A DNA stretch of 64,000 nucleotides from an uncultured virus (IMG/VR IMGVR_UViG_3300027833_000020) (lineage: Duplodnaviria > Heunggongvirae > Uroviricota > Caudoviricetes). The translations under genes and the position numbers were made by a program. Positions 26,736 through 43,125 of this stretch are shown here, piece after piece; position 1 is the stretch's first letter; the number at the start of each line of letters is the position of its first letter. The notes below the pieces were generated by a model, which did not search any database, had not been told where the DNA came from, and saw only the letters and a list, made by a program, of their open reading frames with translations. The stretch is taken from IMG/VR virus record IMGVR_UViG_3300027833_000020; one strand, 5' to 3'.

Positions 26736-26737
26736 AA

Positions 26738-28157: not shown

Positions 28158-28171
28158 GATAGATTCCTTTA

Positions 28172-28630: not shown

Positions 28631-29191
28631 TTAGTTTCTATGCAGATAAAGATCTACAGGTATACATATACGCATCCGTGAGAAATAAGGGTTAACATGA
28701 TGATATGTAAAGCTTGGAAATATTAAATAGTCTCCAGTCTTTGGCATATGTTTGTGTTGACTAAACATAGGATCAAACCAATCATCATATCCGCGGTTTG
28801 CGTTTGATCTAGGATCTGAAAAAACAATATCTCCGCCAGAATTTTGATCTGCTGCCATTGCATAAAATACTGCAGATAAATGCGCACCTGAATGATTATG
28901 AATAGTCATATTATAATCTTCACCGTGGCCAGTAATCCAGCCTTTCATAGTATAACCATTCCAGTCTGAAATTTGTTTACCTACAGTGTGCATCAAATAT
29001 TTATCAAAAGCTTTATATGCAAGCTCTCTAAATTGTGCTAACTCTTTAGAATCGTTTTCAAAAATATTAAATCCGTTTAATTCACCTTGCAGGTTATTCA
29101 TATCCAGATTTGTAAGAATATAATTAACCAGATCTAAGCTATCAAAGTTTCCTTCGCCAACCACTGTTGGCCATAAGTCTTTAAATTCCAT
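28631..29191 (-). CDS. putative 2OG-Fe(II) oxygenase (TIGR02466-like)
   Basis: Start MEFKDLWPT at 29191; HNH....SAVFY, G.I.F.DPR and G..LIFPS...H.V.P...R. Confidence 0.8.
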   Translation of the reverse strand: MEFKDLWPTVVGEGNFDSLDLVNYILTNLDMNNLQGELNGFNIFENDSKELAQFRELAYKAFDKYLMHTVGKQISDWNGYTMKGWITGHGEDYNMTIHNHSGAHLSAVFYAMAADQNSGGDIVFSDPRSNANRGYDDWFDPMFSQHKHMPKTGDYLIFPSFTYHHVNPYFSRMRICIPVDLYLHRN

Positions 29192-29222
29192 AATATAACC
29201 TTCCATAATGTACTTGTATATG

Positions 29223-29272
29223 TATTTATAACGAAAATAAAGGTGTACATTTTCAACGTTGTGTGGTATTAT
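29223..29272. promoter_or_regulatory. divergent promoter pair: late TATAAATA (-) and sigma70-like (+)
   Basis: TATAAATA on minus at 29223-29230; TGTACA(29244-29249)-17 bp-TATTAT(29267-29272) with extended TG on plus. Confidence 0.55.
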
Positions 29273-29306
29273 ATATAATATAAAGGATGAAGTTAGGAAC
29301 ATTTAT

Positions 29307-29762
29307 ATGATATTTGAGAATTTTGAGAACTGGTTATTAACAACAGACTGCTTTGAAAATCATGATGTATCTCATATTGATGTAAATGGAAACCAACACT
29401 ACATCAAGCACTCAGAATATATGGCTTATCTCGGTGAGATGACTGTATTGATTGCAAATAAAGCCACTATAAAAGTAGAGCAAGTAGAACAGTGGTACGG
29501 TTATACAGATAGAACAGCGCATGCATTTTATAATGCTGCAAATGGTCCATCATTCGATACTCACACAGATCCTATAGATGTTTTAATAGAGTGTTTAGAT
29601 GGTAAGAAGACTCTAGAAATAGATGGCGAAACAGTTGTATTACAGCCGCAGGATAAAGTTCTTATTCCTGCAAATACTGCTCACAGGGCACTTAACTATG
29701 AAAAGGCATTGATGATCTCATATGGCATTAGCGACACAGAAACACTTACTCGTATACGTTAA
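29307..29762 (+). CDS. JmjC/cupin 2OG oxygenase-like protein
   Basis: Start ATG 29307 after AGGA; PSFDTHTDP.DV (HxD), GKK and IPANT.HRA. Confidence 0.75.
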   Translation: MIFENFENWLLTTDCFENHDVSHIDVNGNQHYIKHSEYMAYLGEMTVLIANKATIKVEQVEQWYGYTDRTAHAFYNAANGPSFDTHTDPIDVLIECLDGKKTLEIDGETVVLQPQDKVLIPANTAHRALNYEKALMISYGISDTETLTRIR

Positions 29763-30810
29763 AACCACTGAAACTTGTAATCTAAATTGCTCACATTGTT
29801 TTACTTCCGGATCTAAAGGACGTAAGATATATTTTGATGCGTTTAAGACAGCAAACTGGTGTAACGAATTAGATACGGCTGATAACCAGATTCATTTTGA
29901 ATATCACGGTGGCGAACCTATGCTTGCCCCTATGAAAGATATTATGGAATTCTATAATATTACAAAGAATCAGTGGGGTGATCGCTGCACACACGGTATT
30001 ACATCAAACCTTGTTTTTAAACTTAAACCAGAACATATAGAATTCTTTAAACTGTTAGATGGTGGATTTATAGGTACATCGTGGGATCCTAATATACGAT
30101 TTGCGAATGAAAAGCAAAGAACATTATGGGAAAACAATGTTAAAGCATTAACTTCACAGGGTTTTCAAATTAAATGTTTTATATCTGTATCTGTTGATGT
30201 AATAAAAATGCAGCCAAAGGAAATTGCTGACTACATGCATTCGTTAGGTATTGCTGAAATATCATATGAGAGATTAACTCATAACGGTAATGCTACAATT
30301 AACTTAGATATATTCCCGCACAATCGAGATTTAAATGATTGGTGGGTGTTAATGCATGAAACCACTCAAGGACATCCTGTTGCAAACGGATTTTTAAATA
30401 CTATTTACGATAAGTTTGATCACGGTGAAATGTTCAGTGGTACATTCTGTAGAGATTGTGAACAAAAGTTACATACAATTAACGCTGATGGTACTGTTGC
30501 TGGTTGTCCTAATGCTGCAACAACTGATTGGTATGGCACTATTGATATGCCAGCAAAAACAGTAAGATCATCACCAAAACGTGCAGAAATTATCTCGTGT
30601 GAATTGCATGATAGAGATCCACGTTGTTACAAATGTCCAGTGTTTCTGTATTGTAATTCCGATTGCCACCAGTTAGAATGGATAGATGATGTATGCCCAG
30701 CACCTAAACAATTAATGATGACGTTGGCAATGGAAAAGGGTTGGTTAGAATCTGATCAATATGAAATTGAAAGCACAAGCAATAATATACCTGTTAAAAT
30801 GGTGATGTAA
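29722..30810 (+). CDS. radical SAM / SPASM protein (1)
   Basis: CNLNCSHC, HGGEP; C-terminal C..C, GCP and CYKC.....C...C cysteines. Confidence 0.92.
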   Translation: MALATQKHLLVYVKTTETCNLNCSHCFTSGSKGRKIYFDAFKTANWCNELDTADNQIHFEYHGGEPMLAPMKDIMEFYNITKNQWGDRCTHGITSNLVFKLKPEHIEFFKLLDGGFIGTSWDPNIRFANEKQRTLWENNVKALTSQGFQIKCFISVSVDVIKMQPKEIADYMHSLGIAEISYERLTHNGNATINLDIFPHNRDLNDWWVLMHETTQGHPVANGFLNTIYDKFDHGEMFSGTFCRDCEQKLHTINADGTVAGCPNAATTDWYGTIDMPAKTVRSSPKRAEIISCELHDRDPRCYKCPVFLYCNSDCHQLEWIDDVCPAPKQLMMTLAMEKGWLESDQYEIESTSNNIPVKMVM

Positions 30811-31862
30811 TGGATTTGATAATTAAGCCAACCGAGGCGTGTAATTTTAAATGCACGTTCTGCTCAAGCACGTCTATTGATCCGGATAAAGCCGGTCTAT
30901 TAGATTTAAATTATATCTATGATTTCTTAAAAAGATTTCCAGATACAAATACGATCATTGTAAATGGTGGTGATCCTTTAATGTTATCTCCACAATATTA
31001 CTGGGATCTTATTGCACATATGGATGAACACAATTATCCCGCGAGTATTAGCTTTACAAGTAACCTTTGGCCATTCCTTGTTAAACCAGAGAAGTGGATA
31101 GATCTATTTAATCATGATAGACTTGGTGTTACAACATCATTTCAATATGGTGGTGGTAGATTAAAAGGTGACTTTACTAACTTCTCTGAAAAAGATTTTT
31201 GGCTTGTATCAGATAAGATGTTAGAACTATGTGGTTATAGACCTGATTTTATTTCTGTTATTCTAGAAGAAAACCTTGATACTGCAATTGATAATGTATT
31301 ACTTGCAAAGAAGATGGGTGTTAACTGTAAATTAAATTATGCAATGGCATCTGGTGTTCAAGGTACTACATTACAACTCAGTAAAATATATGAAGTATAT
31401 GTAAAGATCTGGGAAATGGGTTTGGCTGAGTGGGAATGGAACACTACTCAAATGATGAAAAGATTACAAGGTGGTGCTACAACATGTCCACAGAATAGAA
31501 ATTGTGATGATGGTATTCGTGCACTTAATCCAGGAGGCGACTACTATAGTTGTGGTGCTTTTGGTGATGATATGGATTATCCTATTGACTTTGAAAAAGA
31601 AATGGCGGGTGACTTCTTTAGACCTGTAAGTTCTGATCCAACTATACAAACAATGAAGATGGCTTGCTATACTTGTCCTATGTTTGAAATATGTAATGGT
31701 TGTAGAAAAACAGTACGTGATATGAAACGAGAAGGAACTGTAGAAGAACATTGTAAACGAATGAAAGGTCTTGCACCTCGTATTTTAGAATCTAATGGAA
31801 TGAGTGCAGATTCCGTAACACCATATGTTAATGAGGGAATAGATGTTCTCTGTATCGATTAA
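30810..31862 (+). CDS. radical SAM / SPASM protein (2)
   Basis: IKPT..CNFKCTFC, GGDP; CP....C, YSC and CYTC.....C..C. Confidence 0.92.
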   Translation: MDLIIKPTEACNFKCTFCSSTSIDPDKAGLLDLNYIYDFLKRFPDTNTIIVNGGDPLMLSPQYYWDLIAHMDEHNYPASISFTSNLWPFLVKPEKWIDLFNHDRLGVTTSFQYGGGRLKGDFTNFSEKDFWLVSDKMLELCGYRPDFISVILEENLDTAIDNVLLAKKMGVNCKLNYAMASGVQGTTLQLSKIYEVYVKIWEMGLAEWEWNTTQMMKRLQGGATTCPQNRNCDDGIRALNPGGDYYSCGAFGDDMDYPIDFEKEMAGDFFRPVSSDPTIQTMKMACYTCPMFEICNGCRKTVRDMKREGTVEEHCKRMKGLAPRILESNGMSADSVTPYVNEGIDVLCID

Positions 31863-32757
31863 TCCTACATACTTTTGTAATTTTAACTGCGACTTCTGTT
31901 ATTTAAGTAAAGAACAGTTACGTGATAGAACAACTACAAAGATTGATGTTATTATGGATAGGTTAGCTGAGATTGATATTCCTATATCTCACGTTGATTT
32001 GTATGGGGGTGAGATTGGTTTATTACAAGATGATTATTTAAATGAACTGATAGATAGAATACATTCCACATACGACACAACAATTTCTATTATTACAAAT
32101 CTATCTGCTGTTCGTGATGTATTCCTTAGAGACGACATCGAATTATCTGTGTCATATGATTTTGATGCACGAGAGAAACAACAAATAGTTTTAACTAATA
32201 TGATGATGCTTACAAGACCATTTTCGGTGTTGACATTAGCTTCGGAAAAGGTTATAAATACAAATGTCGACTTCATGATTTCTACGTTTAACGCATTAAG
32301 TAATTTAAAATGTGTTGAGATTAAACCTTTTAGTTCTACTACTCATAGGAATCAAAGAGTTACAGACTTAGAGTTTGAAAACTTTATTAAAGAATGGATT
32401 GATAATCCACAAGAAAAGAAATGGCAATTTTTAAATCAAGATAAGATAGAAGATTGTTTAGACGGAAAATACAATGCATTTTCTGATGATCATGTTTATA
32501 TAACACCAAGCGGTAACTTTGGCGTACTAGATTTTGATCTATTAGGTAACGAGCATTTTACAGAGCTTACTTCTTTTGATAAGTATAAGGAGTGGACTAA
32601 GAGAGAAAAAACGGCCGGTGTTTCGGATATTTGTAAGAACTGCAAATATTTCGGTGGCTGTTTAACAGAGCACTATAAATACGTGGAGAATTTAAATAAT
32701 GGTTGTAATGGATATAAGGGGTTATTAGACTGGTATGATGAAGGATTGGAAAGCTAG
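31843..32757 (+). CDS. radical SAM protein (3) with C-terminal Cys cluster
   Basis: CNFNCDFC, YGGE; CKNC.....C...C. Confidence 0.9.
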   Translation: MFSVSINPTYFCNFNCDFCYLSKEQLRDRTTTKIDVIMDRLAEIDIPISHVDLYGGEIGLLQDDYLNELIDRIHSTYDTTISIITNLSAVRDVFLRDDIELSVSYDFDAREKQQIVLTNMMMLTRPFSVLTLASEKVINTNVDFMISTFNALSNLKCVEIKPFSSTTHRNQRVTDLEFENFIKEWIDNPQEKKWQFLNQDKIEDCLDGKYNAFSDDHVYITPSGNFGVLDFDLLGNEHFTELTSFDKYKEWTKREKTAGVSDICKNCKYFGGCLTEHYKYVENLNNGCNGYKGLLDWYDEGLES

Positions 32758-33133
32758 ACAAGCCGCGTTTCACCACGCAAATAAAAAATATAAAGACGAT
32801 CTAAACGACGAAGAGATTGTTCATTCGGATGATATTGTTGATGATGTACTAATGCATTTTGCTCAGTATGTCGATGAATGGATTTATCCAGCAAAATCAT
32901 ATGTAGTAGGTATATGCTATGCTAAATGGTTAGAGCAAGACTTTGGCGAAGATTTTTATGAGGTATTAAACGATCCTGATCTATTGTTTGGGAACGATCC
33001 ATACTTTGTACCTTACTCTGAAGATGAAAACGTTTATGACGCTATTCTAAAAGAGTTAGACTTTAACGAAGACCTTGGTATGGTACCGGATATTTACGAG
33101 TATTATCGAGAGGAAATGTTCTTTGGTACCTAA
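32735..33133 (+). CDS. acidic hypothetical protein inside the radical SAM operon
   Basis: 132 aa, overlaps both neighbours; WIYPAKSY and NDPYF.PY. Confidence 0.75.
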   Translation: MMKDWKARQAAFHHANKKYKDDLNDEEIVHSDDIVDDVLMHFAQYVDEWIYPAKSYVVGICYAKWLEQDFGEDFYEVLNDPDLLFGNDPYFVPYSEDENVYDAILKELDFNEDLGMVPDIYEYYREEMFFGT

Positions 33134-34295
33134 GTTTCCAAACGGCTCGTTGATACCAACTAGGATGATATCTACTGATAGGCAGCAGAATAATGGGTTG
33201 GCAGAAGCTGCTAATCCTGCCGCTGATGCTATGACTAAGATATTACTTGAGACTAAGCGACCAGACATTGCTGAAATTGAGATGACGTTATTTGAAAATT
33301 GTCATCTCAATTGCTCTTTCTGTCACCACGATAAGAAGTCGCATGTTGGTTTATCTCGAGCAGAAATATTCTCTAAGATCCCACTGGTTGAAGAACACGT
33401 TATTAAGATGAAAAACCGTGCAGACGTTATTCAGATTAATATGCTAGGTGGAGAGTTATTTCAAGATAGAATATCAGAATGGGCTTACGATGTTTACTAT
33501 GATTTTATGGTAGAGATTAAAAAGATCTATGATGAGCATAAACAAAATATTAAAGTAGTTTGGGTAACATCGTTTCAATTTGTTAAACGTGATAGAGTAC
33601 AGAAACTTCTCGATGATTTAAATGCTATTGATATTCCATCATATATTATTTGCTCATATGATTTCGATGGTAGACCTACTAAAGGACCATATGCTAAGAA
33701 CATAGAATACTTTGCTGATTATATTACATCAATTAATATGGTTGCAACTGTTCCTTCTGTTGAAAGATTTATGGCAGACGATGATGAGTATTTTCATTAT
33801 CTATATGAAAAGTTTGATAACTTTTACTTTGATGATTATATTCCAGATAAAGGTTTTAGTCATTTAATACCAAGTGATAGTTTATATCTCGAGTTTTTAA
33901 AGTTTGTTTATCACAATTATCCAGACATCAATCCTATTAAGGATCTGATAAATAACGATAAGAACCATATGCATTGCTTAGCTCTGAATAAGGTTACTAT
34001 ATTTCCAGACAATAGCACATCTAATTGTCGTTGGGATAGATATACACCCGAAGATTTCAATACACCGTTACATCGAAAAGATAATGCTTCAATGATGCAA
34101 GCTTATATGGATGAGAACGGTTGTTTATCTTGTAAGTGGTGGGATAAGTGTGGCTTTAGATGTTACACGCAGTGGGACTGGAAAACACGTGAACGTGACT
34201 TACCAGATTGTATTATGAGATTGTGGTTCAATTATATGGACAAGACACCACAAAATTTGATAACAGGATTTAATTATGATGAAACGAAAAAATAG
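33123..34295 (+). CDS. radical SAM / SPASM-like protein (4)
   Basis: CHLNCSFC, LGGE; HC, NC and CLSC.....C...C; start uncertain (TTG 33123 after GAGG; track gives 33075). Confidence 0.88.
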   Translation: MVPKFPNGSLIPTRMISTDRQQNNGLAEAANPAADAMTKILLETKRPDIAEIEMTLFENCHLNCSFCHHDKKSHVGLSRAEIFSKIPLVEEHVIKMKNRADVIQINMLGGELFQDRISEWAYDVYYDFMVEIKKIYDEHKQNIKVVWVTSFQFVKRDRVQKLLDDLNAIDIPSYIICSYDFDGRPTKGPYAKNIEYFADYITSINMVATVPSVERFMADDDEYFHYLYEKFDNFYFDDYIPDKGFSHLIPSDSLYLEFLKFVYHNYPDINPIKDLINNDKNHMHCLALNKVTIFPDNSTSNCRWDRYTPEDFNTPLHRKDNASMMQAYMDENGCLSCKWWDKCGFRCYTQWDWKTRERDLPDCIMRLWFNYMDKTPQNLITGFNYDETKK

Positions 34296-34992
34296 ACTTG
34301 ATTTTTATACAACGCATGATACTCTTATTGAAATGCAACCTATAAAACAAGGAACTAAACCGCCGGGATGGTGGAAGTCTATTAAGAATTCTTATGACCA
34401 ATTTAGATCTAGAGTTGGTGTAACTGTACCAACACCTACGATTAAGACTTGTCCTGGTGTCGTAGATTACATGCGCAAGCCAATCACATTAAAGTTATGG
34501 TCAGATGTTATTTTTAAAGTAAAAGCAAATGGTGATGTTGAAGCTATTGAGCCGATCCATAATGCAGGAATAATAGATGGTGCTATGCATCATTCCGAGC
34601 AATATGGTGATACATTATATCCGGGCAGAACAGTATTTAAATTGCACGGTCCTTGGGCAGTCAAAGCAAACTTTCCAGGCGAATATATGATAACAGAATG
34701 TCATTATAACGAAGACTTACGTAAGCATGGTATATTAATATCACCTGGAATTTCAAATTTTAATCTTCAGCACACATTAAATGCATTCCTTGTGTTCCCT
34801 ATTAAAGATGAAGATTACACTGTCACGTTAAAATATGGGACACCTATTATGTCTTTATATCCAATGCATGATAGGAAGTTTGAAGTTAAGATGCATAAAA
34901 CAGATCGTAAAGGTTTTAGTGATATACAATCAGTATTTCCGTCAACCTTTATTGGCAGATATTACACCGGGAAACACGCACTCAAGGATTGA
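34276..34992 (+). CDS. hypothetical beta-barrel protein often found with phage oxygenase clusters
   Basis: P.WWK, TIKTCPG..DY, K...PW, PG and GTP...L.P motifs. Confidence 0.65.
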   Translation: MMKRKNRLDFYTTHDTLIEMQPIKQGTKPPGWWKSIKNSYDQFRSRVGVTVPTPTIKTCPGVVDYMRKPITLKLWSDVIFKVKANGDVEAIEPIHNAGIIDGAMHHSEQYGDTLYPGRTVFKLHGPWAVKANFPGEYMITECHYNEDLRKHGILISPGISNFNLQHTLNAFLVFPIKDEDYTVTLKYGTPIMSLYPMHDRKFEVKMHKTDRKGFSDIQSVFPSTFIGRYYTGKHALKD

Positions 34993-35970: not shown

Positions 35971-37093
35971 TATAAACCTCATCATCATATAAACTGATTA
36001 CATCTTTGTTTAAGATGCATTCTTTTCTTCCATCAAACACGGTATCCATTATCATAGGAACCATTCTGTTTGCACATATATTTAAATACTTACAAGAACC
36101 ACATTCTTTATCAGAACTATTTTCTATTTGGCTATTGACAACCTCGTTCTTTTTGTTTAAAATAGAATCAACAAGTGAACCATTAACTGGTACTTTAAAA
36201 TCATCTATGTGTATTTGTGCGTTCTCATATATGAATGGCGACATATACATATCACCTTGATATAAACTTACTACAGAATAATGGAAAGCCTTGTGAGAAA
36301 CATCTCCTTGTAGGAAATGAAATTTGTTTTTAAATCTATTTTGATCTACCGACAAACGAGTAAGCATATCATTCCATTCAAATAACTTATCACCATGCTT
36401 TGCACTATGATTAAATGAACGTACAACTGACGGTAATACTTCGATTACTGTTTGGTATTTGGTTCTTACAAAGTCAATCGCTGCAAATAGAATTTCTTCA
36501 ACACCTTGAACAATATTAGTAGCCATACTAATTTCAAAGTTTAAAGAACTATTTTTAAATGTTTCTATTCGTCTGTCGAGTGCTTCCATATAGATTATGT
36601 CAGTCATTAATCTATTTAAATCTAAAGCGATCTGAACATCCCAAGCTTCTACTGCTTTACCTAGTGGTGAGTTCTCAATAGCTTTAATCTTGCTATCAAT
36701 ATCTTCTTCTGATAATGAACCAAGGATAGAACAGTTATGCTGAACATTTCTATTATCTTCAGGCATCATTAAAATTGCATCTGCAAGTCTTGGGTTATTA
36801 ATAATTTCTTCTAGATTCTCAGCACCATAGAAATCAGTTGGTCCGATTACAATATCATCTAATACGATATCGGTTCTATCTTTTAATTCATATGCAAGTG
36901 AATGAAATAGATTAATTGATTTTGGATTCCAATTGCCTCTACGTTTAACAAAACATCCAGGACACATATAAGAACAACCTTCAAGTATTTCTAAATTAAC
37001 TTGTATCTTGTAAGTACCCATCGAAGAAATAGCACTAAACTCTTCGAGCTTTTTGCCATCAATTACAATGCTTTTCCATTCATCATTTAACAT
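35954..37093 (-). CDS. divergent radical SAM protein (6), GPTD type
   Basis: EILEGCSYMCPGCFV, IGPTDFY; CGSC.....C...C. Confidence 0.85.
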   Translation of the reverse strand: MLNDEWKSIVIDGKKLEEFSAISSMGTYKIQVNLEILEGCSYMCPGCFVKRRGNWNPKSINLFHSLAYELKDRTDIVLDDIVIGPTDFYGAENLEEIINNPRLADAILMMPEDNRNVQHNCSILGSLSEEDIDSKIKAIENSPLGKAVEAWDVQIALDLNRLMTDIIYMEALDRRIETFKNSSLNFEISMATNIVQGVEEILFAAIDFVRTKYQTVIEVLPSVVRSFNHSAKHGDKLFEWNDMLTRLSVDQNRFKNKFHFLQGDVSHKAFHYSVVSLYQGDMYMSPFIYENAQIHIDDFKVPVNGSLVDSILNKKNEVVNSQIENSSDKECGSCKYLNICANRMVPMIMDTVFDGRKECILNKDVISLYDDEVYSGNSY

Positions 37094-38240
37094 AAGAAAT
37101 ATCTTTTATCCTATCTAATCTTTCGTCGCCGTCTTCTGTTACAAGAAACTTTTTCCTATAACCTTTCTTATCAGCGTCTACAGAATACCCATCCCAGTCA
37201 TACATCTCTTGGGCAGGAGCGTTATAGTTATGTATATTATTTATCATGTTTTCTTTGGGTGCAATACATCTATCAACACCAAGATAATCTCTTAACAAAA
37301 TAATTTTACGATTATAGCACGAGAAAAACATAGGACAGCTTTCACATTCAGTATTCTTTGCTCTATCTATTTGCGATTCAGTAATAGTTACAGCATCTTC
37401 AAACGTTTGAACTTTAAACATATCATGATAGATAGCCATATTTTCATACATAAACGGGCTTAAATACCACTCGCCTCTTTTGTAATTTAAAACAGTGTAA
37501 TTCATTCCTGCATGAGAATGATCCACCATTATATTATTCAACGTTGAATCTCTAGTCAATACATTAAAGTAGTCATTAAACTTATCTAATGTTTCTAATA
37601 TAATATTTGCTCTGTGAGATCTTGAAACAGATGGAATAAAATCTAATATAGTATCGAATGTTTTTACAGCATGCTCGTGTAAGGCAGCATAATCTAATCC
37701 ATAATCTTTAATATTTACAACAAACGTATATGTTATTTCATGCTTTATATGTTCATCTAAATATCTTAACTTGTTTTGCATGTCTGCCATATAATCTATT
37801 GACATAAACTTATGAGGATTGGTTGCAATACCGATCTCAATTTCTGTATCTAGATTAATATTATCTTTTAAGAATTCACAAAACCTTGGAATATCACCAT
37901 CAATTAATGTAGATACGAATGCTAAGATAGGAGAGTTTTCGTTTACAATATCAACTAGGTGTGGCATTACTTCATAGAAGTTTTCTGATGCTAAAAAGTC
38001 AGTTGGACCAATGAGCATTTCATCTACGAGTATTCCTTTGTCTGTAATGTTTCTTATAAATTCCTTAGCTGAATCTAGTTGATGTACATCAGATGCATTC
38101 CCGCGGCGGTGAACAAAGCATCCAGGACACTTGTGGTGACATCCATCTAGTACATCCAACTGTATCTTAACGGCGCTGACGGGCTTCGTTTGGGTCTCTG
38201 TCGTCAGTTCGTAATAAAGATTGTTCTTAATTATTGGCAT
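37083..38240 (-). CDS. divergent radical SAM protein (7), GPTD type
   Basis: DVLDGCHHKCPGCFV, IGPTDFL; CESC.....C...C. Confidence 0.85.
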   Translation of the reverse strand: MPIIKNNLYYELTTETQTKPVSAVKIQLDVLDGCHHKCPGCFVHRRGNASDVHQLDSAKEFIRNITDKGILVDEMLIGPTDFLASENFYEVMPHLVDIVNENSPILAFVSTLIDGDIPRFCEFLKDNINLDTEIEIGIATNPHKFMSIDYMADMQNKLRYLDEHIKHEITYTFVVNIKDYGLDYAALHEHAVKTFDTILDFIPSVSRSHRANIILETLDKFNDYFNVLTRDSTLNNIMVDHSHAGMNYTVLNYKRGEWYLSPFMYENMAIYHDMFKVQTFEDAVTITESQIDRAKNTECESCPMFFSCYNRKIILLRDYLGVDRCIAPKENMINNIHNYNAPAQEMYDWDGYSVDADKKGYRKKFLVTEDGDERLDRIKDISYVK

Positions 38241-39267
38241 GATGCATGTACTCCTTTAAAGCAACACAGCCTTTAATCTTTCTTGATCTCATATACATAT
38301 GAACATTACGCTCGGCACAACTCATTAAGAATTCACACGTATTACAATCGTCAGTAGTTTTTGCGTACTCTAAATTTTCATGTAGTGTAGGTTCATCTAT
38401 TTTTGATTCAAACTCTGGTGTTCTTTGTATAATAGCATCGTATAAAAATGGATTAACATATATCTTTCCATTATAAAAACTATAGTTCTGACAACCATAT
38501 CCATTAAAACTAGAATCAAAGAATGTATACAAGTTACGCCATTTAGAATCTATATTTTGATTTAATAGATCTTCTCTAAACATTTTTAAATGCTTATCAA
38601 CCTTGCCTCTTACATTTCTATCTGTAAGGAACGACGGAGTAATTACAATCGGTGCATTAAAGTCATCGAATACTTTTTGACATAAATCGTTATAAGATAT
38701 TTTATCAAAGATTCCTTCATACCAATTCACTCTTAATTGAACTGAACCTTCTTCAAACAGTGCAAGCTTTTTGTACCAATCGATCATACGAATATCTTTA
38801 TTAATATATTGATTAATATCTAAAACAATTTTAAAATCGATATCAGGTGTTCTATCAATACCTTCGTATAAGCTCCAGATCTTTTCGAGCTTTTCTTTTA
38901 TTACTTCAATAGGTTGATTAAGTGTTGTGAGAAACCCAATGGCAGATATACCATATAAGTCTTTCATAGCAGGATGTTCCATGATCTCGTCAAAGTTCTC
39001 TGCATCAAATATGTCAGTAGGACCCACGACAATTTCATCCGGATAATAACTACTTTCAAGCAGTGTATTATAGAGTGTAGTTAAATGATCTGAATTTGTA
39101 AGGTTCTTACGGGGAATAAAACAGCCAGGACACATCTGACTACATCCATGAAGTATGTCTAAATTAATTTCTGTTCTAAGGAAATCATTATTAATTGGAC
39201 TTTTATTTTCTTCATAGTTGTAATAGCCAGCATGAGTTTTATTCAGATGGACTATCATCGCCTTCAT
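38227..39267 (-). CDS. divergent radical SAM protein (8), GPTD type
   Basis: DILHGCSQMCPGCFI, VGPTDIF; CNTC.....C...C; start may be 39258. Confidence 0.85.
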   Translation of the reverse strand: MKAMIVHLNKTHAGYYNYEENKSPINNDFLRTEINLDILHGCSQMCPGCFIPRKNLTNSDHLTTLYNTLLESSYYPDEIVVGPTDIFDAENFDEIMEHPAMKDLYGISAIGFLTTLNQPIEVIKEKLEKIWSLYEGIDRTPDIDFKIVLDINQYINKDIRMIDWYKKLALFEEGSVQLRVNWYEGIFDKISYNDLCQKVFDDFNAPIVITPSFLTDRNVRGKVDKHLKMFREDLLNQNIDSKWRNLYTFFDSSFNGYGCQNYSFYNGKIYVNPFLYDAIIQRTPEFESKIDEPTLHENLEYAKTTDDCNTCEFLMSCAERNVHMYMRSRKIKGCVALKEYMHHANN

Positions 39268-40069
39268 CTACCGCCTTATCTGCTACAACCTCTTCTACAA
39301 TCTGCTCTGGAGTTTTCTCTACCATTTTCTCGTGGCTAATAATAAATCCTGGAGGCATAATATTTAGAATGTTATTAGTAATATTAGATTGTGTGAAAAG
39401 AAAGAATAAATCTTTTCCAAAGAACGCTGGCTTGTCATTATAGACTTGCTTATTGTATTCTTGTTTAAATCCTATCATGTGGCATACAAGTAAAAATCCA
39501 TCCCAGCCATCGATAATTAGTTTAGCGATATTAGGACCAATATTAGATGGTACGTCAATTACTTTTATTTCTTCCACAGCCTCGGCTACTTCTACTTCTA
39601 ACATTTTTGTTTCGTCAGGTAGATTATTATAGAATGTACATAGTACAAAAGGAATTACTTGAGCAATTGTATCTGCTAATTCGTTTACCAATTTAGTATG
39701 TTTATCAATAAAGTTAAACATCTCTTCTTTTGGCCACATATTAAAAAGCTCTTCTTCCAGATGATTTATATCATGTCCGAATCTTAACTTTAATAACATT
39801 ACAACAAATCTTGTTAACAATCCAGCATCAATCATAAAGTCTGATTTAATGTAAGCTAACATCAGCTCTTCATCGACGTGAGAAAATGTTGTTTTAAAAT
39901 TAGTATTGGCTAAGTAAATAACAATATGCTCAGCCGAAAGCTTTTCTTTAGACTCTAGGTAATTTACCCACAATACGTAATCATCTTCTGCTTCCTTAAG
40001 CTTGTAAATCTCTACAAGATCTTGCGGAGCAAGTGGAAGTTTATATGCTTTTTTTTCATTGTCACTCAT
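39239..40069 (-). CDS. hypothetical protein in the radical SAM operon
   Basis: 276 aa, helical and acidic, overlaps the downstream gene. Confidence 0.75.
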   Translation of the reverse strand: MSDNEKKAYKLPLAPQDLVEIYKLKEAEDDYVLWVNYLESKEKLSAEHIVIYLANTNFKTTFSHVDEELMLAYIKSDFMIDAGLLTRFVVMLLKLRFGHDINHLEEELFNMWPKEEMFNFIDKHTKLVNELADTIAQVIPFVLCTFYNNLPDETKMLEVEVAEAVEEIKVIDVPSNIGPNIAKLIIDGWDGFLLVCHMIGFKQEYNKQVYNDKPAFFGKDLFFLFTQSNITNNILNIMPPGFIISHEKMVEKTPEQIVEEVVADKAVDEGDDSPSE

Positions 40070-40086
40070 ATTATAAGTACCTTCAA

Positions 40087-41193
40087 TTATATTAATGGAT
40101 ATTTGTGGATAAGGTAAGGAATTCTGTTTTGTCTCTTAGAGAAAAACTGTACATCTGTATTAATTAATCTTAAATCATCTGTAATAGTTTCACTACTAAA
40201 GTTTCTTTCCAATACCTTTTGAACAATTGGAAACACGTTATTGATCTCTGTATAAAGATCCATGTATTCCCAACCATCCGGCTGTGACGCTTTATCTGTA
40301 TGCACCTGAATAAACGCTGCGTTATCTTTAACTTTATCCCACAACTCTTTAAGTTTATAGAATGCTAACTGATAGTTACCTGCATTTGCTGCATTAACAT
40401 ATACATCTCTGAAGAACTCTTTTTTGTTAGTAGCCCAACCATTTGCTTCAGTAGCGTTTGCATTCATATAATCAATTACTGACATGATATATGCTGAATA
40501 GTGGCGACGTGAAGTAAAGTGTTCCATAACATCTTGAGCCATAACAGAAGAATGAATTGTGAATTTTTCTACGAGTAGATTTGATACACCTGTGCAAGGG
40601 TAGTTATCATTTAAGTAGAATAATAAATCGTAACTAAAGTTCTTACCATTTTGATATACTAAATCAAATCTTGGTGTTTCAGCATTTGCTAATGTGGCAG
40701 CACATGTTGTGCCTGCGTTTGTCATAACTTCGGAGTCACTCATTAAAGTAATTATACTATCAGTTTCTATAACAGCTTGAATAAAGTTACAAGTAATTAC
40801 GTCAATATCAACAGCAGGGTCAGCATCTGCATAAAATCCAGAAGCTAACAACAGGCCAGAGATATAACGACAATATACACTAAGCATATCTGTTTCGTCA
40901 TAAAAAGCAATGATTCTTTTATCACTGTTTTGTATATAAGTTGAATTGGCAATATCATCAAAATATTCAAAAGATATTAAGTCTGTAACGCCAGTTCTTA
41001 CAGCTTCTGCTAATAGAATAATTTGGCCTTCAATAAGCTGAGCACCTTCTTCTCGGTTTGGATGCACAACTACAATAGGTCTTGGCTCTTGTGTATGGTA
41101 AAACGAATTTAATTCGCCTACTATTGTTTCAATATTTTGAGTATTTGTAATATACTTTTTGTTATTTAGATAATATAAACTTTGCCCGATCAT
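40087..41193 (-). CDS. hypothetical protein in the radical SAM operon
   Basis: 368 aa; ATGA-coupled to radical SAM (9). Confidence 0.75.
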   Translation of the reverse strand: MIGQSLYYLNNKKYITNTQNIETIVGELNSFYHTQEPRPIVVVHPNREEGAQLIEGQIILLAEAVRTGVTDLISFEYFDDIANSTYIQNSDKRIIAFYDETDMLSVYCRYISGLLLASGFYADADPAVDIDVITCNFIQAVIETDSIITLMSDSEVMTNAGTTCAATLANAETPRFDLVYQNGKNFSYDLLFYLNDNYPCTGVSNLLVEKFTIHSSVMAQDVMEHFTSRRHYSAYIMSVIDYMNANATEANGWATNKKEFFRDVYVNAANAGNYQLAFYKLKELWDKVKDNAAFIQVHTDKASQPDGWEYMDLYTEINNVFPIVQKVLERNFSSETITDDLRLINTDVQFFSKRQNRIPYLIHKYPLI

Positions 41194-42365
41194 GAAGCTT
41201 CTCCTAATTTTTTAGTTGCATCATCATTCCAGGTCCAATCATATGGATTATAATGATTTAATACATCTTTGTTCAATACACAACCATCAATTTTTAATGT
41301 TTCTTGAGCTTCGAATACCAGTCTGCTTGCACAAGCAATTTTGTATTGGCAGGTTGAACAATCTTTTACCTTACTCGACCTATTTATACCTTTAGCAATA
41401 AGTTGGTTTTTTCTATCAAGGATTTCCTCGAATGTTAAACCAGTAACATCTAGATTCTTATTCTTTAAGAAGAATGCTTGCTCATGCAACATAACATTTA
41501 GGTGTGTAGTTGGACCATTTTCGCCTGGAACGATAGTGATACCAACAAAGTTAATAGAATTACAATATAGGTGAGCCATCGACATTACTGTTTCGTTAGC
41601 ATTGCCTTCGTCAATTACTCTTCCCAAGAATTCGTTCCAACCAAATAGGTTTTTACGCTGAACTAATTCATTGTGTGCTCTTGAGAATGCAGGATTCATT
41701 TCAACAATAGTTTCATAATCCTGTACTGAGCGTTTAATAATTTTATTATATGTTTCTTTATCTATTGATTTACCAACAACATTAGATGCTTGTAATGTCC
41801 AAGACCAATCCATTTGTTTTGGTGTGTTCTCTTTAAAGAACTTTACTTTTCTCATTACTTCTTCGTAATAAAGAATGTCGTTTAACATCTGATCTACTCT
41901 ACCAATTGGCATAATAAATTCAATAATCATTTCACGACGGAATTTATCTTCGTCATCAAGGATATTAAATATCTCTTGTACTCTTTCCATTGTTGCTACA
42001 TCGAATTTTGCAGGTGCAGCAATACGCGCATTAGTATGTTCGCGCATAATTTCTTGTACAGTTTTGTTGTTTAAAACCGATTCGGTATTTTTAGCAGTAA
42101 AGAAGTCAGTTGGCCCAATAACAAATTCTCTAAGATTAAGACCTGTTCTTAAAACACCATCTGTTAATTCTTTTGCTCTATCAATAATTTGTTGATTCAT
42201 AGCAGGATCAATATTCTTATCAACGAAACAACCTAGACAAGCTTGTTCACATCCTGATAATACTTCCATTTGAATTAACACATCAAATTTAGTTGCATCA
42301 CCTGGCGATAAACTTTCTGGGCCTGAATACCGCATTTGTTTACAGTATGATTTTTGCATTGACAT
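41190..42365 (-). CDS. divergent radical SAM protein (9), GPTD type
   Basis: EVLSGCEQACLGCFV, IGPTDFF; CSTC.....C...C; TAATG-coupled to the upstream small protein. Confidence 0.85.
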   Translation of the reverse strand: MSMQKSYCKQMRYSGPESLSPGDATKFDVLIQMEVLSGCEQACLGCFVDKNIDPAMNQQIIDRAKELTDGVLRTGLNLREFVIGPTDFFTAKNTESVLNNKTVQEIMREHTNARIAAPAKFDVATMERVQEIFNILDDEDKFRREMIIEFIMPIGRVDQMLNDILYYEEVMRKVKFFKENTPKQMDWSWTLQASNVVGKSIDKETYNKIIKRSVQDYETIVEMNPAFSRAHNELVQRKNLFGWNEFLGRVIDEGNANETVMSMAHLYCNSINFVGITIVPGENGPTTHLNVMLHEQAFFLKNKNLDVTGLTFEEILDRKNQLIAKGINRSSKVKDCSTCQYKIACASRLVFEAQETLKIDGCVLNKDVLNHYNPYDWTWNDDATKKLGEAS

Positions 42366-42748
42366 TAGCGTCGTCCTCTCGATGAATGGCAGCTACTATG
42401 GCAGCTGGCGTGACAGTAATAAGCATTGATTGTTCTGTTTGACAACCTACCTTCTATCACGTCTACTGTTCTTCTTGTTAAATCTTCTAATGTATCTACA
42501 ATATCAATTGGATACATAACATTACCTGTATTAATTGTGCCATCTACATAGTTATTATATGTATTGTTATTCGCATTAACATATTCAAACCTGTGATAAT
42601 ACCATTGTCCTCTAGAATAACTGGTTTGTCCGGCGTCAGCTCGTACATACGCGTTTACATAAATTCCTACAGTCTTATCAAATGTACGGAGTTGTCCGCC
42701 GCCATAAGATTGAACCCACGAGTTCACATCTGCTCTTGTCATAACCAT
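42365..42748 (-). CDS. candidate radical-SAM substrate / fibre-tip protein B with (CHxS)3 C-terminus
   Basis: 127 aa ending SNRTINAYYCHASCHSSCHSSRGRR. Confidence 0.75.
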   Translation of the reverse strand: MVMTRADVNSWVQSYGGGQLRTFDKTVGIYVNAYVRADAGQTSYSRGQWYYHRFEYVNANNNTYNNYVDGTINTGNVMYPIDIVDTLEDLTRRTVDVIEGRLSNRTINAYYCHASCHSSCHSSRGRR

Positions 42749-43125
42749 TAGCGTCTACCTCTTGATGAGTGACATGATGAGTGACAACTAGCGTGACAGT
42801 AATAAGCGTTGATAGTTCTGTTTGAAATTCTACCTTCTATCAAGTCTACTGTTCTTCTAACAATACTTGAGATAGAATTCTGTACATCACTAGATCTAAT
42901 AAGCTGGCCCGTGTAAAGACTACTATCTAGATAATTGCTGTATACACTATTTGAAGCATTTACATATTCATATCGCGTATAATGCCACTGGCCACGTGAG
43001 TAACTTGCAACCCCCGTACCACGAACATAACTGTTGATATAGTAGCCAACTGTTTTATCAAAAGTACGGAGCTGTCTACCACAATATGATTGTGTACTTG
43101 AATTTAATGATGCATATGTTGCCAT
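42748..43125 (-). CDS. candidate radical-SAM substrate / fibre-tip protein A with (CHxS)3 C-terminus
   Basis: 125 aa, paralog of B with identical last 25 aa; ATG 1 nt after the tail fibre stop. Confidence 0.75.
   Translation of the reverse strand: MATYASLNSSTQSYCGRQLRTFDKTVGYYINSYVRGTGVASYSRGQWHYTRYEYVNASNSVYSNYLDSSLYTGQLIRSSDVQNSISSIVRRTVDLIEGRISNRTINAYYCHASCHSSCHSSRGRR

What the first reader, a model, noticed from the sequence alone, without database searches (positions are those of the whole stretch)
28631..43125. Phage-encoded RiPP-like maturation system: nine radical-SAM enzymes, oxygenases and two (CHxS)3 substrate proteins attached to the tail fibre locus
Seen: about 14.5 kb within the virion module holds nine CxxxCxxC proteins with C-terminal auxiliary Cys clusters, a JmjC-like cupin, a 2OG-Fe(II) oxygenase, four unknown proteins and two small paralogs ending YYCHASCHSSCHSSRGRR. 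Known: radical SAM/SPASM enzymes beside short Cys/His/Ser-repeat proteins are the hallmark of peptide maturases (sactipeptide/ranthipeptide thioethers, triceptide cyclophanes, the bacterial His-Xaa-Ser HxsA/B/C system). Inferred: the phage builds a heavily cross-linked C-terminal peptide on fibre-associated proteins. No ABC exporter or leader peptidase is visible, which favours a virion-displayed product over a secreted antibiotic. I know of no characterised phage system of this kind, but I could not search the literature.
Basis: partly seen in the sequence, partly recalled or inferred. Interest (0 to 1): 0.95.

Follow-up and report, generated by a model that had tools for sequence, protein, structure and literature searches.

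The report
Phage radical-SAM cluster for Cys-His-tailed protein
A T4-like phage carries, next to its giant tail fibre, two small proteins with a near-invariant Cys-His-Ser/Arg tail and up to nine radical-SAM-type enzymes that probably modify that tail chemically, a widespread but uncharacterised way of tailoring a virus-particle protein.

Summary
All 17 genes lie at the stated coordinates, and both small paralogs end in CHASCHSSCHSSRGRR followed by a stop codon.

The link between this tail and the enzymes is strong.
- All 80 viral loci that were found by the tail motif alone and have flanking DNA carry radical SAM homologs. The median is 4, and the nearest lies within 2.5 kb.
- In the reverse direction, 17 of 20 long contigs chosen through one enzyme carry the tail. 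The 3 misses are cut too short on the relevant side.
- A profile of the N-domain without its tail finds 18 full-length relatives. Sixteen end in the tail and 2 break off inside it.

The same system occurs in cultured jumbo phages (RSL2, RSF1, pPa_SNUABM_DT01, Atu_ph07, Phosso) and on chromosomal contigs of Bdellovibrionota.

In Atu_ph07 the tailed protein gp170 was detected in particle preparations. It peaks in the top gel band, far above its 31.9 kDa. The neighbouring enzymes were not detected.

The modification itself has not been shown, and its chemistry is unknown. Five of the nine enzymes are only probable radical SAM proteins. I found no paper that describes the system. This scan has reported the same system before on other DNA.

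The parts
43127..52675 (-). Giant tail-fibre-like protein (3182 aa), directly upstream of and co-directional with the tailed proteins. Only its last ~180 aa (about 43127-43670) are conserved among fibres next to this system.
   Evidence: ORF. PHROG tail-fibre families match the last 249 aa. Of 63 loci with a fibre hit, 62 reach the last 130 aa. The same C-terminal domain also occurs in PA5oct and CP220-like phages with no tail-motif or multi-radical-SAM cluster annotated in the 24-30 kb examined. TATAAATA lies at 52714-52721(-), ~39 bp upstream.
42748..43125 (-). CHS1, 125 aa. It has a folded N-domain of no recognised fold and the tail CHASCHSSCHSSRGRR-stop (tail codons 42751-42798).
   Evidence: AF2 model with pLDDT 80.9. 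No fold match. phrog_35144, unknown function. TATAAATA at 43192-43199(-), 67 bp upstream.
42365..42748 (-). CHS2, 127 aa, a paralog of CHS1 with the same tail (tail codons 42368-42415).
   Evidence: Compared with CHS1, the last 22 codons show 0 non-synonymous and 13 synonymous differences. The 105 columns before them are only 55% identical.
41190..42365 (-). B5, 391 aa, a probable divergent radical SAM/SPASM-like protein (CEQACLGC; CX2CX5C...C).
   Evidence: B-family alignment invariants. In 20 of 22 loci with two or more tailed genes.
40087..41193 (-). u368, an acidic unknown protein (pI 4.7) conserved in the expanded form of the cluster.
   Evidence: No Pfam, NCBIfam or PHROG hit. No Atlas lead. 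Homologs in 21 of 80 loci.
39239..40069 (-). u276, an acidic unknown protein (pI 4.6) conserved in the expanded form.
   Evidence: No family hit. No Atlas hit. Homologs in 21 of 80 loci.
38227..39267 (-). B4, 346 aa, probable radical SAM/SPASM-like protein (CSQMCPGC).
   Evidence: Weak phrog_1802 hit on the C-terminal part.
37083..38240 (-). B3, 385 aa, probable radical SAM protein (CHHKCPGC).
   Evidence: Pfam Radical_SAM at 26.2 bits, below the 29.5 cut-off. 22-23% identical to RSL2 gp071 and relatives. hhalign against the A1 family gives E 4.4e-4, probability 33%.
35954..37093 (-). B2, 379 aa, probable radical SAM/SPASM-like protein (CSYMCPGC).
   Evidence: SPASM TIGR04085 at 18.4 bits, below the cut-off of 27.
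34942..35988 (-). B1, 348 aa, probable radical SAM/SPASM-like protein (CEFRCPGC).
   Evidence: phrog_31457, unknown function.
34276..34992 (+). u238, a basic unknown protein (phrog_7084).
   Evidence: Homologs in 10 of 80 loci.
33075..34295 (+). A4, a radical SAM/SPASM enzyme (CHLNCSFC; CX2CX5CX3C). The listed TTG start is probably too far upstream.
   Evidence: phrog_1802 at 3e-23. Homologs in 67 of 80 loci.
32735..33133 (+). u132, an acidic 132-aa protein (pI 4.1) that always follows A3 and overlaps its end by 23 nt. It is the system's near-universal non-enzyme partner.
   Evidence: phrog_20737 at 7e-43, unknown function. Homologs in 53 of 80 loci and in Bdellovibrionota loci. AF2 model with pLDDT 91. 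No fold match.
31843..32757 (+). A3, a radical SAM enzyme (CNFNCDFC; CX2CX5C).
   Evidence: Pfam Radical_SAM at 33.3 bits. Homologs in 55 of 80 loci.
30810..31862 (+). A2, a radical SAM/SPASM enzyme (CNFKCTFC; CX2CX5CX2C). It is the most conserved member, 57-60% identical to cultured jumbo phage proteins.
   Evidence: Pfam at 36.2 bits. tblastn gives 15 of 50,697 phage records. Family alignment has mean column identity 64%.
29722..30810 (+). A1, a radical SAM/SPASM enzyme (CNLNCSHC; canonical CX2CX5CX3C). In the common form of the cluster it abuts the tailed gene.
   Evidence: The family profile is closest to CteB (5wgg, 3.3e-8) and aligns over its full length with anaerobic sulfatase maturase (4k37, 1.7e-6).
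29259..29762 (+). Cupin / JmjC-like oxygenase. The listed TTG start is probably too far upstream.
   Evidence: Cupin_2 at 30.1 bits and JmjC_2 at 22.8 bits. Homologs in 48 of 80 loci.
28631..29302 (-). 2OG-Fe(II) oxygenase (2OG-FeII_Oxy_5). The listed start is probably too far upstream, since TATAAATA lies at 29223-29230(-).
   Evidence: Pfam at 47.4 bits. phrog_81. Homologs in 31 of 80 loci. Promoter-like site.

Best explanation
This is a phage-encoded maturation system for a protein, not a short peptide. CHS1 and CHS2 are late-expressed proteins of the fibre module. Each has a folded N-domain and a 16-residue tail, (C-H-x-S)2-C-H-x-x-R-G-R-R-COOH. The core enzymes are four different radical SAM/SPASM enzymes (A1-A4), a JmjC-like cupin and a 2OG oxygenase, working together with the acidic protein u132. 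They covalently modify the Cys/His/Ser residues of that tail in the infected cell. This phage also carries a second set of five divergent radical-SAM-like proteins (B1-B5, with u276 and u368), and that set goes with having two short tailed paralogs. The matured protein is then built into or onto the particle, probably at or near the long fibres. The enzymes stay behind in the cell.

Shown: the anatomy; the tight two-way co-occurrence; purifying selection on the tail; the presence of a homolog in Atu_ph07 particle preparations.

Inferred: that the tail is the substrate; that it becomes covalently modified; which chemistry is used; where in the particle the protein sits; what it does there. Candidate chemistries are Cys thioethers, Cys-to-formylglycine conversion, or a His/Ser change of the HXS type. 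Candidate roles are a rigid cationic or metal-binding adhesion element, or a covalent staple.
For: 1. A motif-only scan of viral contigs found at least 121 loci.
- All 80 with flanking DNA carry homologs of the window's radical SAM proteins. The median is 4, the maximum 8, and the nearest lies within 2512 bp. All four A families are present in 44 of the 80.
- For comparison, the A2 family occurs in only 15 of 50,697 cultured phage records.

2. In the reverse direction, 17 of 20 contigs longer than 40 kb that were chosen through an A2 homolog carry the tail plus a stop codon. In the 3 misses the contig ends 0.15 to 7.8 kb beyond A2. The window's own A2-to-tail distance is about 10.5 kb.

3. All 158 motif ORFs stop right after RGRR, although the pattern asked for no stop codon. 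Ser at the fourth place of repeats 1 and 2 is found in 149 of 150 distinct tails, although the pattern also allowed Thr, Cys, Trp and Arg.

4. A non-circular test used a profile of N-domains with the tail cut off, searched against 1.84 billion representatives. It found 26 proteins, 18 of which cover the domain to its end.
- 16 end in (CHxx)3RGRR.
- 2 break off inside the tail.
- None lacks the tail.

5. Between CHS1 and CHS2, the last 22 codons have 0 non-synonymous and 13 synonymous differences. The rest of the protein is 55% identical.

6. The A1 family profile is nearest to peptide- and protein-modifying SPASM enzymes. These are CteB at 3.3e-8 and anaerobic sulfatase maturase over its full length at 1.7e-6. 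NCBIfam lists DarE, DynA, PapB and HxsB/C-type maturases as the best, though weak, hits.

7. Atu_ph07 gp170 is the tailed homolog. It has 296 aa, ends CHSSCHASCHNSRSRR, and has a computed mass of 31.89 kDa, the same as in Table S5.
- It was detected in particles with 8 peptides and 35% coverage, in bands 1-9, most abundant in band 1.
- By my hand count, 43 proteins in that table weigh 25-40 kDa. Only 3 peak in band 1, and gp170 is the only one of those with more than 2 peptides.
- The adjacent radical SAM proteins (gp165, gp168, gp171) and gp172 are not in the table.

8. The number of tailed genes tracks the enzyme set. B5 is present in 20 of 22 loci with two or more tailed genes, against 4 of 58 with one.
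Against: - No modification has been observed in any homolog. The Atu_ph07 table gives no peptide-level data for the tail.
- That preparation was PEG-purified. It also contains non-structural proteins such as terminase, RecA-like protein, ssDNA-binding protein and ribonucleotide reductase. Detection alone therefore does not prove a structural role.
- RSL2 gp068, the tailed homolog, is annotated only as 'hypothetical protein', while its neighbour gp065 is 'virion structural protein'.
- The short (125-127 aa) form found in this window has no proteomic evidence of its own.
- The B group has no significant match to solved radical SAM enzymes (best E 0.083) and only a weak profile match to the A1 family (probability 33%).
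- No RiPP recognition element was found, and the u132 model matches no known fold.
- Three Cys plus three His could simply bind metal without being modified.
- The fibre's conserved C-terminal domain also occurs in phages without the system. Fibre adjacency may therefore be positional only.
Confidence: 0.62

Rival explanations
1. The tail is a classical RiPP core. The N-domain acts as a long leader. After modification the 16-residue peptide, or a small molecule built on it, is cut off and released as an antibiotic, signal or cofactor.
For: The core sits at the C-terminus next to SPASM-type enzymes, as in many RiPP precursors. The best NCBIfam hits are RiPP maturases. The conserved C-terminal position recalls scaffold peptides such as those of mycofactocin and PQQ (recalled, not tested).
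Against: No peptidase or exporter family occurs among the 17 proteins. The N-domain is a confidently folded domain (pLDDT 80.9) of 110-290 aa, which is unlike a leader. The Atu_ph07 homolog is found in particles at or above full size. The genes lie inside the structural module. Four unknown proteins could still hide a protease.
Confidence: 0.12
2. The Cys/His tail is not a substrate. It is a metal or iron-sulfur binding site. The small protein could serve the enzymes as a cluster donor, reductant or scaffold, or it could bind metal ions along a fibre axis. The enzymes would then act on something else, such as the fibre, a nucleotide or a surface sugar.
For: The tail has three Cys and three His at a fixed spacing. 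Of 121 full-length proteins, 89 have no other Cys. His-based metal sites in the T4 fibre tip are a known precedent (recalled, not tested). A3 and other enzymes have weak viperin, MoaA and QueE-like hits in the radical SAM core. Sugar-nucleotide genes lie nearby at 24745-25530.
Against: Those hits cover only the generic N-terminal core. A1 aligns over its full length with protein-modifying SPASM enzymes. A helper of the enzymes should not be in the particle when the enzymes are absent from it. The near-invariant Ser and the RGRR ending are not needed for metal binding. Metal binding does not explain why gp170 peaks in the top gel band after boiling in SDS.
Confidence: 0.18
3. The system is a counter-defence or mimic of the bacterial HXS defence system, in which the HxS-repeat effector HxsA is matured by the radical SAM enzymes HxsB and HxsC.
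For: The H-x-S triplets lie inside C-H-x-S, next to basic residues, as in HxsA (PMC13128918, abstract and section 9 read). There are weak HxsB and HxsC hits.
Against: HxsB scores 30.5 bits against a cut-off of 370, and HxsC 24.6 against 267.9. These are no better than other SPASM families. No HxsA or HxsD model hit appears. PADLOC gives only weak viperin-core hits. The genes lie in the structural module, not among early genes. The system also occurs on chromosomal contigs of predatory bacteria.
Confidence: 0.04

Closest known systems
HXS anti-phage system (HxsA effector matured by radical SAM enzymes HxsB/HxsC with HxsD; Li et al. 2026, PMC13128918; abstract and section 9 read)
   Same: Several radical SAM enzymes plus a small accessory protein mature a folded protein that carries tandem H-x-S triplets flanked by basic residues. 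The product is a functional protein, not a released peptide.
   Different: Here the repeat is C-H-x-S, three times, at the extreme C-terminus and ending in RGRR. HxsA has five HxS repeats, a signal peptide and a peptidoglycan-binding domain. This system has four to nine enzymes plus oxygenases instead of two enzymes. The enzyme families do not reach the HxsB or HxsC cut-offs, and no HxsA or HxsD hit appears. The system is phage-borne and lies in the fibre module.
Anaerobic sulfatase-maturating enzyme acting on sulfatases (Cys/Ser to formylglycine in a C/S-x-P/A-x-R motif)
   Same: A SPASM radical SAM enzyme modifies a Cys in a short motif of a full-size protein. The A1 family aligns over its full length with anSME (4k37, E 1.7e-6). 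The last repeat, C-H-x-S-R, has the Cys-to-Arg spacing of the sulfatase motif (the motif is recalled).
   Different: The substrate has no sulfatase domain. The third place holds G, S or T, not P or A. The score is far below the family cut-off (24.4 bits against 349). Several further enzymes are present.
Sactipeptide/ranthipeptide maturases (CteB, PapB) and other SPASM RiPP cyclases (DarE, DynA, triceptide enzymes)
   Same: These enzymes act on Cys-rich C-terminal cores encoded next to SPASM enzymes. CteB is the best solved match of the A1 family (5wgg, 3.3e-8). DarE, DynA and PapB are among the best NCBIfam hits.
   Different: All hits lie far below the family cut-offs. No fused or separate recognition element was found, and no protease or exporter. 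The 'leader' is a folded domain of 110-290 aa. The product appears to stay on a particle protein.
T4-type fibre accessory genes encoded just after the long fibre gene (gp38-type adhesin/chaperone) and His-bound metal ions in the gp37 tip (recalled, not tested)
   Same: Small genes lie directly downstream of, and co-directional with, a long fibre gene in a T4-like phage. They carry a periodic metal-ligand-type motif.
   Different: There is no sequence or fold similarity. T4 has no maturation enzymes of this kind.

Membership tests
Radical SAM superfamily (PF04055) | CX3CX2C cluster motif near the N-terminus | tested here: met
   All nine proteins have it, at residues 11-76. It is invariant in the B-family alignment of 36 sequences.
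Radical SAM superfamily (PF04055) | Score above Pfam's gathering cut-off (29.5 bits) | tested here: inconclusive
   Met for A2 (36.2) and A3 (33.3). Below the cut-off for A1 (19.9), A4 (19.6) and B3 (26.2). No hit for B1, B2, B4 or B5. B family against A1 family by hhalign gives E 4.4e-4, probability 33%.
SPASM/twitch subfamily (TIGR04085) | C-terminal CX2CX5CX3C auxiliary-cluster motif and a domain score of at least 27 bits | tested here: inconclusive
   The motif is canonical in A1 and A4, reads CX2CX5CX2C in A2, and reads CX2CX5C plus a later Cys in A3 and B1-B5. Domain scores are 23.5 (A1), 18.7 (A2) and 18.4 (B2), all below the cut-off.
His-Xaa-Ser (HXS) system | HxsB (TIGR03978) and HxsC (TIGR03977) maturases above their cut-offs | tested here: not met
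   Best scores are 30.5 bits against 370 and 24.6 bits against 267.9.
His-Xaa-Ser (HXS) system | HxsA-type substrate and HxsD partner | tested here: not met
   No NCBIfam family at E up to 0.01 for CHS1, CHS2 or u132. H-x-S triplets are present, but inside C-H-x-S, three times, at the C-terminus. No peptidoglycan-binding domain in Pfam.
RiPP pathway | Precursor gene next to its maturase(s), with a conserved core | tested here: met
   80 of 80 loci, nearest enzyme within 2512 bp. Tail conservation.
RiPP pathway | Leader removal by a protease and export of a small product | tested here: not met
   No peptidase or transporter family among the 17 proteins. The Atu_ph07 homolog is seen at or above full size in particles. 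Four unknown proteins remain untested.
RiPP pathway | RiPP recognition element (PqqD-like), fused or separate | tested here: inconclusive
   No Pfam or NCBIfam hit. A1-A3 begin directly with the cluster motif. The u132 model gives only weak winged-helix-type rows, best Z 3.6.
Anaerobic sulfatase maturation | anSME equivalog score and a sulfatase substrate with C/S-x-P/A-x-R | tested here: not met
   24.4 bits (A1) and 34 bits (A2) against a cut-off of 349. The substrates have no sulfatase domain.
Virion structural protein | Detected in purified particles | not testable with these tools
   Only indirect evidence. The homolog Atu_ph07 gp170 was detected with 8 peptides and 35% coverage in PEG-purified particles (PMC6102473, Table S5). 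There are no data for the window's own short form.

The most novel reading that the evidence does not exclude
The enzymes turn the Cys/His/Ser tail into a reactive or cross-linked group, for example formylglycine or thioether/His-Ser bridges. This group covalently staples the small protein to itself or to the giant fibre. That would be the first radical-SAM-installed covalent link in a virus particle. The same chemistry is shared with the fibre-like prey-recognition proteins of predatory Bdellovibrionota, so it would be a common maturation step of cell-gripping organelles in phages and bacterial predators.
Probability: 0.2. Interest if true: 0.92.

Novelty: new variant of a known kind. Interest (0 to 1): 0.8.

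Why it matters
Post-translational chemistry of phage particles is almost unexplored. This conserved set of four to nine radical-SAM-type enzymes plus oxygenases appears devoted to one 16-residue tail of a particle-associated protein. It is spread over marine T4-like phages, soil jumbo phages of plant-associated bacteria, and predatory bacteria.

If the reading is right:
- It adds enzymatic tailoring of structural proteins to phage biology.
- It offers several enzyme families with no assigned reaction and a defined, short, easily expressed substrate.
- It may explain an unknown step in host or prey recognition.

It is directly testable, because cultured carriers exist (Atu_ph07, pPa_SNUABM_DT01, Phosso).

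Tried and rejected
- DNA search of the whole cluster, and tblastn of CHS1, against cultured phages: no match. The homologs in cultured phages were found only through enzyme A2 and by motif.
- Fold of the CHS1 N-domain: no convincing match. Foldseek against PDB gives best E 0.23, BFVD best E 0.067, and VIA-align wide best Z 5.4, rmsd 3.6 over 62 residues.
- Fold of u132: Foldseek best E 1.1 and VIA-align best Z 3.6. I had hoped for a PqqD-like recognition element. The result is inconclusive.
- Complex prediction of A3 with u132, a conserved overlapping gene pair: no answer, scores 0.00 and 0.00, controls not run. This is evidence neither way.
- ESM Atlas for u368 and u276: no usable lead.
- PADLOC: only weak viperin-core hits.
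- RP31 supplement (PMC5468394, file 3): this phage has a different radical SAM set, and I could not place a tailed gene in it. I dropped this line.
- A2 matches in relatives looked too long, which suggested an intron or insertion. The extra length was the adjacent A3 paralog joined to the match, so I rejected the idea.
- Fibre C-terminal domain as a system-specific docking site: rejected as exclusive, because it also occurs in PA5oct and CP220-like phages without the cluster nearby.
- Whole-genome searches: no genome is held for this window.
- TATAAATA count: 16 sites against 9.7 expected, and 4 of 100 shuffles reach 16. This is not significant overall. Only the positions in front of structural genes are suggestive.

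Full report
**What is there**

On the minus strand a 3182-aa fibre gene (43127-52675) is followed without gaps by:
- two paralogs of 125 and 127 aa (42748-43125 and 42365-42748; CHS1 and CHS2);
- a CxxxCxxC protein (B5);
- two unknown acidic proteins (u368, u276);
- four more CxxxCxxC proteins (B4 to B1, ending at 34942).

Converging on this from the plus strand are a cupin, four CxxxCxxC proteins (A1, A2, A3, A4), the 132-aa protein u132 between A3 and A4, and the 238-aa protein u238. A 2OG oxygenase lies divergently at 28631-29302. Both paralogs end YYCHASCHSSCHSSRGRR followed by a stop.

The degenerate DNA pattern for the tail occurs twice in the window and in none of 100 shuffles.

The rest of the window is a T4-like structural region. 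It holds the major capsid protein, portal, sheath, tube, terminase, neck, prohead protease and scaffold, and beyond the cluster three more giant fibre-like proteins.

**How sure is the enzyme call**

All nine enzymes have CX3CX2C near the N-terminus and a C-terminal CX2CX5C motif. This motif is extended to the canonical SPASM CX2CX5CX3C in A1 and A4.

Pfam Radical_SAM passes its cut-off only for A2 and A3. A1, A4 and B3 score below it, and B1, B2, B4 and B5 have no hit.

A 36-sequence alignment of the B family keeps seven Cys invariant, namely CX3CX2C plus CX2CX5C...C, together with a GPTD motif. The B-family profile finds nothing among solved structures (best E 0.083). It matches the A1 family only weakly (hhalign E 4.4e-4, probability 33%). 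I therefore count four clear and five probable radical SAM proteins.

The A1 family profile is closest to the thioether-forming CteB (3.3e-8). It aligns end to end with anaerobic sulfatase maturase (1.7e-6). NCBIfam lists DarE, DynA, PapB, HxsB/C and similar maturases, all far below their cut-offs.

The hits to viperin, MoaA and QueE cover only the generic N-terminal core.

**Does the tail go with the enzymes**

Eighty of them have flanking DNA.

All 80 carry homologs of the window's radical SAM proteins. The median is 4, the maximum 8, and the nearest is at most 2512 bp from the tailed gene. Counts out of 80:

| Feature | Loci |
|---|---|
| A4 | 67 |
| Fibre C-terminus | 63 |
| A1 | 62 |
| A2 | 57 |
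| A3 | 55 |
| u132 | 53 |
| Cupin | 48 |
| All four A families | 44 |
| 2OG oxygenase | 31 |

For scale, A2 homologs occur in only 15 of 50,697 cultured phage records.

In the reverse direction, I took 20 contigs longer than 40 kb that were chosen only for encoding an A2 homolog. Of these, 17 carry the tail plus a stop codon. In the three misses the contig ends 0.15, 3.7 and 7.8 kb beyond A2, which is less than the window's own distance of about 10.5 kb.

**Two layouts**

Two layouts exist.
- The common one is fibre, cupin, A1, tailed gene (170-310 aa), A4, A2, A3, u132, 2OG.
- The expanded one, as in this window, is fibre, two short tailed genes (124-140 aa), B5, u368, u276, B4 to B1, facing the A set.

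B5 is present in 20 of 22 loci with two or more tailed genes, but in only 4 of 58 with one.

**Conservation of the tail**

All 158 motif ORFs stop directly after RGRR, although the pattern did not ask for a stop.

Among 150 distinct tails, Ser holds the fourth place of repeats 1 and 2 in 149. The pattern also allowed Thr, Cys, Trp and Arg there. The free positions are also narrow: G, S or T at -6, and Ser at -5 in 137 of 150. There are three repeats in 148 tails and four in 2.

The Cys, His and Arg positions were fixed by the pattern, so I added a non-circular test. A profile of 38 N-domains with the tail cut off was run against 1.84 billion representative proteins. It found 26 proteins, of which 18 cover the domain to its end.
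- 16 end in (CHxx)3RGRR.
- The other two break off inside the tail (CHTSCH..., CHASCHSSCH...), which looks like frame errors.
- None lacks the tail.
- In this unbiased set, Asn replaces Ser at the fourth place of repeat 2 in 4 of the 16.

Within the window, the last 22 codons of CHS1 and CHS2 differ at 13 codons, all synonymously. The preceding 105 columns are 55% identical. The peptide itself is therefore under selection, and recent gene conversion does not explain the identity.

**Cultured relatives and other hosts**

A2 is 57-60% identical to proteins of Ralstonia phages RSL2 and RSF1 and their relatives, Burkholderia phages FLC6, FLC8 and S13, Pseudomonas phage pPa_SNUABM_DT01, Agrobacterium phage Atu_ph07 and Sinorhizobium phage Phosso.

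I examined five of these: RSL2, DT01, Atu_ph07, Phosso, and RSF1 through a viral-contig locus of identical length. In all five, a gene right after the A1 homolog ends in the tail. Atu_ph07 and Phosso have RSRR instead of RGRR.

The papers on these phages only list 'radical SAM', 'cupin' and '2OG' annotations (PMC5468394 and PMC11898562, passages read). The large jumbo-phage survey PMC7824862 has no occurrence of 'radical'.

A scan of one genome per prokaryotic species found 27 loci. Those with enough flanking DNA again hold A-family enzymes and u132. Sixteen of them are titled as Bdellovibrionota, including contigs of 1.29 Mb, 382 kb and 299 kb. On two of these the cluster is flanked by housekeeping genes and by a protein with the Peptidase_S74 fibre-chaperone domain. 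So the system is not confined to phages. It also accompanies fibre-like proteins in bacterial predators. The other records look like phage contigs binned into MAGs.

**Is the tailed protein in the particle**

Attai et al. 2018 (PMC6102473; main-text passages and supplementary Table S5 read in full) list gp170 among proteins identified by ESI-MS/MS in Atu_ph07 particles. The entry gives 31.89 kDa, 8 unique peptides, 35.16% coverage, bands 1-9, most abundant in band 1.

The tailed ORF of Atu_ph07 has 296 aa and a computed mass of 31.89 kDa, so the identification is secure.

Band 1 otherwise holds proteins of 75-139 kDa. By my hand count, 43 proteins in the table weigh 25-40 kDa. Three of them peak in band 1: gp170, gp321 (2 peptides) and gp616 (1 peptide). 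Most of the rest peak in bands 5-8.

The adjacent radical SAM proteins gp165, gp168 and gp171, and gp172, gp169, gp166 and gp167, are not listed. The giant gp180 is not listed either.

This fits a particle protein that is part of a species stable to SDS and heat, or covalently linked, while the enzymes stay in the cell. There are caveats. The preparation was PEG-purified and also contains some replication and packaging proteins. No peptide-level data for the tail are given. RefSeq calls RSL2 gp068 only 'hypothetical protein'. The short form found in this window has no proteomics of its own.

**Other parts**

- The CHS1 N-domain folds confidently (pLDDT 80.9) into helix, long beta hairpin and helix, with a low-confidence tail. 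It matches no known fold.
- u132 is acidic (pI 4.1) and overlaps the end of A3. It folds very confidently (pLDDT 91) but matches nothing.
- Only the last ~180 aa of the fibre are shared among fibres next to the system (62 of 63). That domain also occurs in PA5oct, in a particle protein there, and in Campylobacter CP220-like phages without the cluster nearby. It is therefore not a dedicated docking module.
- T4-type late-promoter-like TATAAATA sites stand ~39 bp before the fibre gene and 67 bp before CHS1. The consensus is recalled, and the overall count is not significant.

**Most likely mechanism**

The tail is the substrate of a multi-enzyme maturation. A1 to A4 are four different families, not copies of one. 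They are conserved together from marine T4-like phages to soil jumbo phages and predators. Each therefore probably performs a distinct step on the Cys, His and Ser side chains. The JmjC-like cupin and the 2OG oxygenase probably add hydroxylations. u132 is probably a non-catalytic partner.

The chemistry is open. Candidates are:
- Cys thioethers, as made by CteB and PapB;
- Cys to formylglycine, as made by sulfatase maturase, since the last repeat C-H-x-S-R has the Cys-to-Arg spacing of the sulfatase motif (recalled);
- a His/Ser change like the +8 Da mark on SHRSS in HxsA (PMC13128918, section 9).

The matured protein then joins the particle near the fibres.

I give this reading 0.62. The rivals are a released RiPP at 0.12, an unmodified metal-binding tail whose enzymes act elsewhere at 0.18, and an HXS-related counter-defence at 0.04.

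**Comparison and novelty**

The system works like radical-SAM maturation of a protein, as in HXS or sulfatase maturation. It is a member of none of these families, because the HxsB, HxsC and anSME cut-offs are missed by an order of magnitude and there are no HxsA or HxsD hits. PHROGs hold the parts as families of unknown function (phrog_35144, 20737, 31457, 7084).

Five full-text searches found no description of the system or of the motif. Subscription-only papers, such as the original RSL2/RSF1 description, could not be searched.

This scan has reported the same system before on other DNA (e1-5763756, e1-5388878, e1-5707887, e1-5738499). I re-tested their main claims here. This window adds one more instance of the expanded two-substrate, nine-enzyme form. 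The session also adds the reverse co-occurrence test, the tail-less profile test, the synonymous-difference test and the gel-band statistic.

Noticed in passing
window 59363-64000 (-): A further giant fibre-like ORF, at least 1404 aa and open at the window end. It has nine stretches of collagen triple-helix repeats and a C-terminal Peptidase_S74 intramolecular chaperone domain.
   Followed up: no
window 19709-21796 (-): A T4 gp15-like tail sheath stabiliser fused to a concanavalin-A-like lectin (Laminin_G_3) domain. At 695 aa it is far longer than the 245-position gp15 profile (T4-gp15_tss), which matches only residues 6-225.
   Followed up: no
window 24745-25530 (-) and 25500-27784 (-): A cytidylyltransferase/mannose-6-phosphate-isomerase fusion lies inside the structural module. 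It is followed by two unknown proteins (411 and 348 aa) and two DUF7936 paralogs (27828-28555). This block travels together with the 2OG-cupin-A1 end of the cluster in five viral loci: L006, L021, L022, L053, L074.
   Followed up: partly
window 28631-29302 (-) / 29259-29762 (+): The mechanical ORF starts of the 2OG oxygenase and the cupin overlap head to head. A TATAAATA site at 29223-29230(-) and internal ATGs suggest that both real starts lie further in, leaving a short divergent promoter region.
   Followed up: no
L052 and L066 (same 151-kb viral contig; G011): One phage carries both layouts. It has an expanded cluster with two short tailed genes and, 18 kb away, a second fibre with A1, a long tailed gene, A4 and A3. 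That makes three tail motifs in one contig.
   Followed up: partly
L143 17180-18916 (+), Halobacteriovoraceae MAG contig: A B12-binding radical SAM protein (579 aa) and extra 2OG oxygenases sit at the end of the predator's version of the cluster. A clostripain-like peptidase and a transglutaminase-elicitor-like protein lie a few kb upstream.
   Followed up: no
L142 846-1433 and L146 120-764 (Bacteriovoracia MAG contigs): Tails with four CHxS repeats instead of three.
   Followed up: no
PMC6102473 Table S5 (Atu_ph07): The 4449-aa 'T4-like phage structural protein' gp180, which lies next to the cluster, is not in the list of proteins detected in particles, although its neighbours gp176, gp177 and gp181 are.
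   Followed up: no
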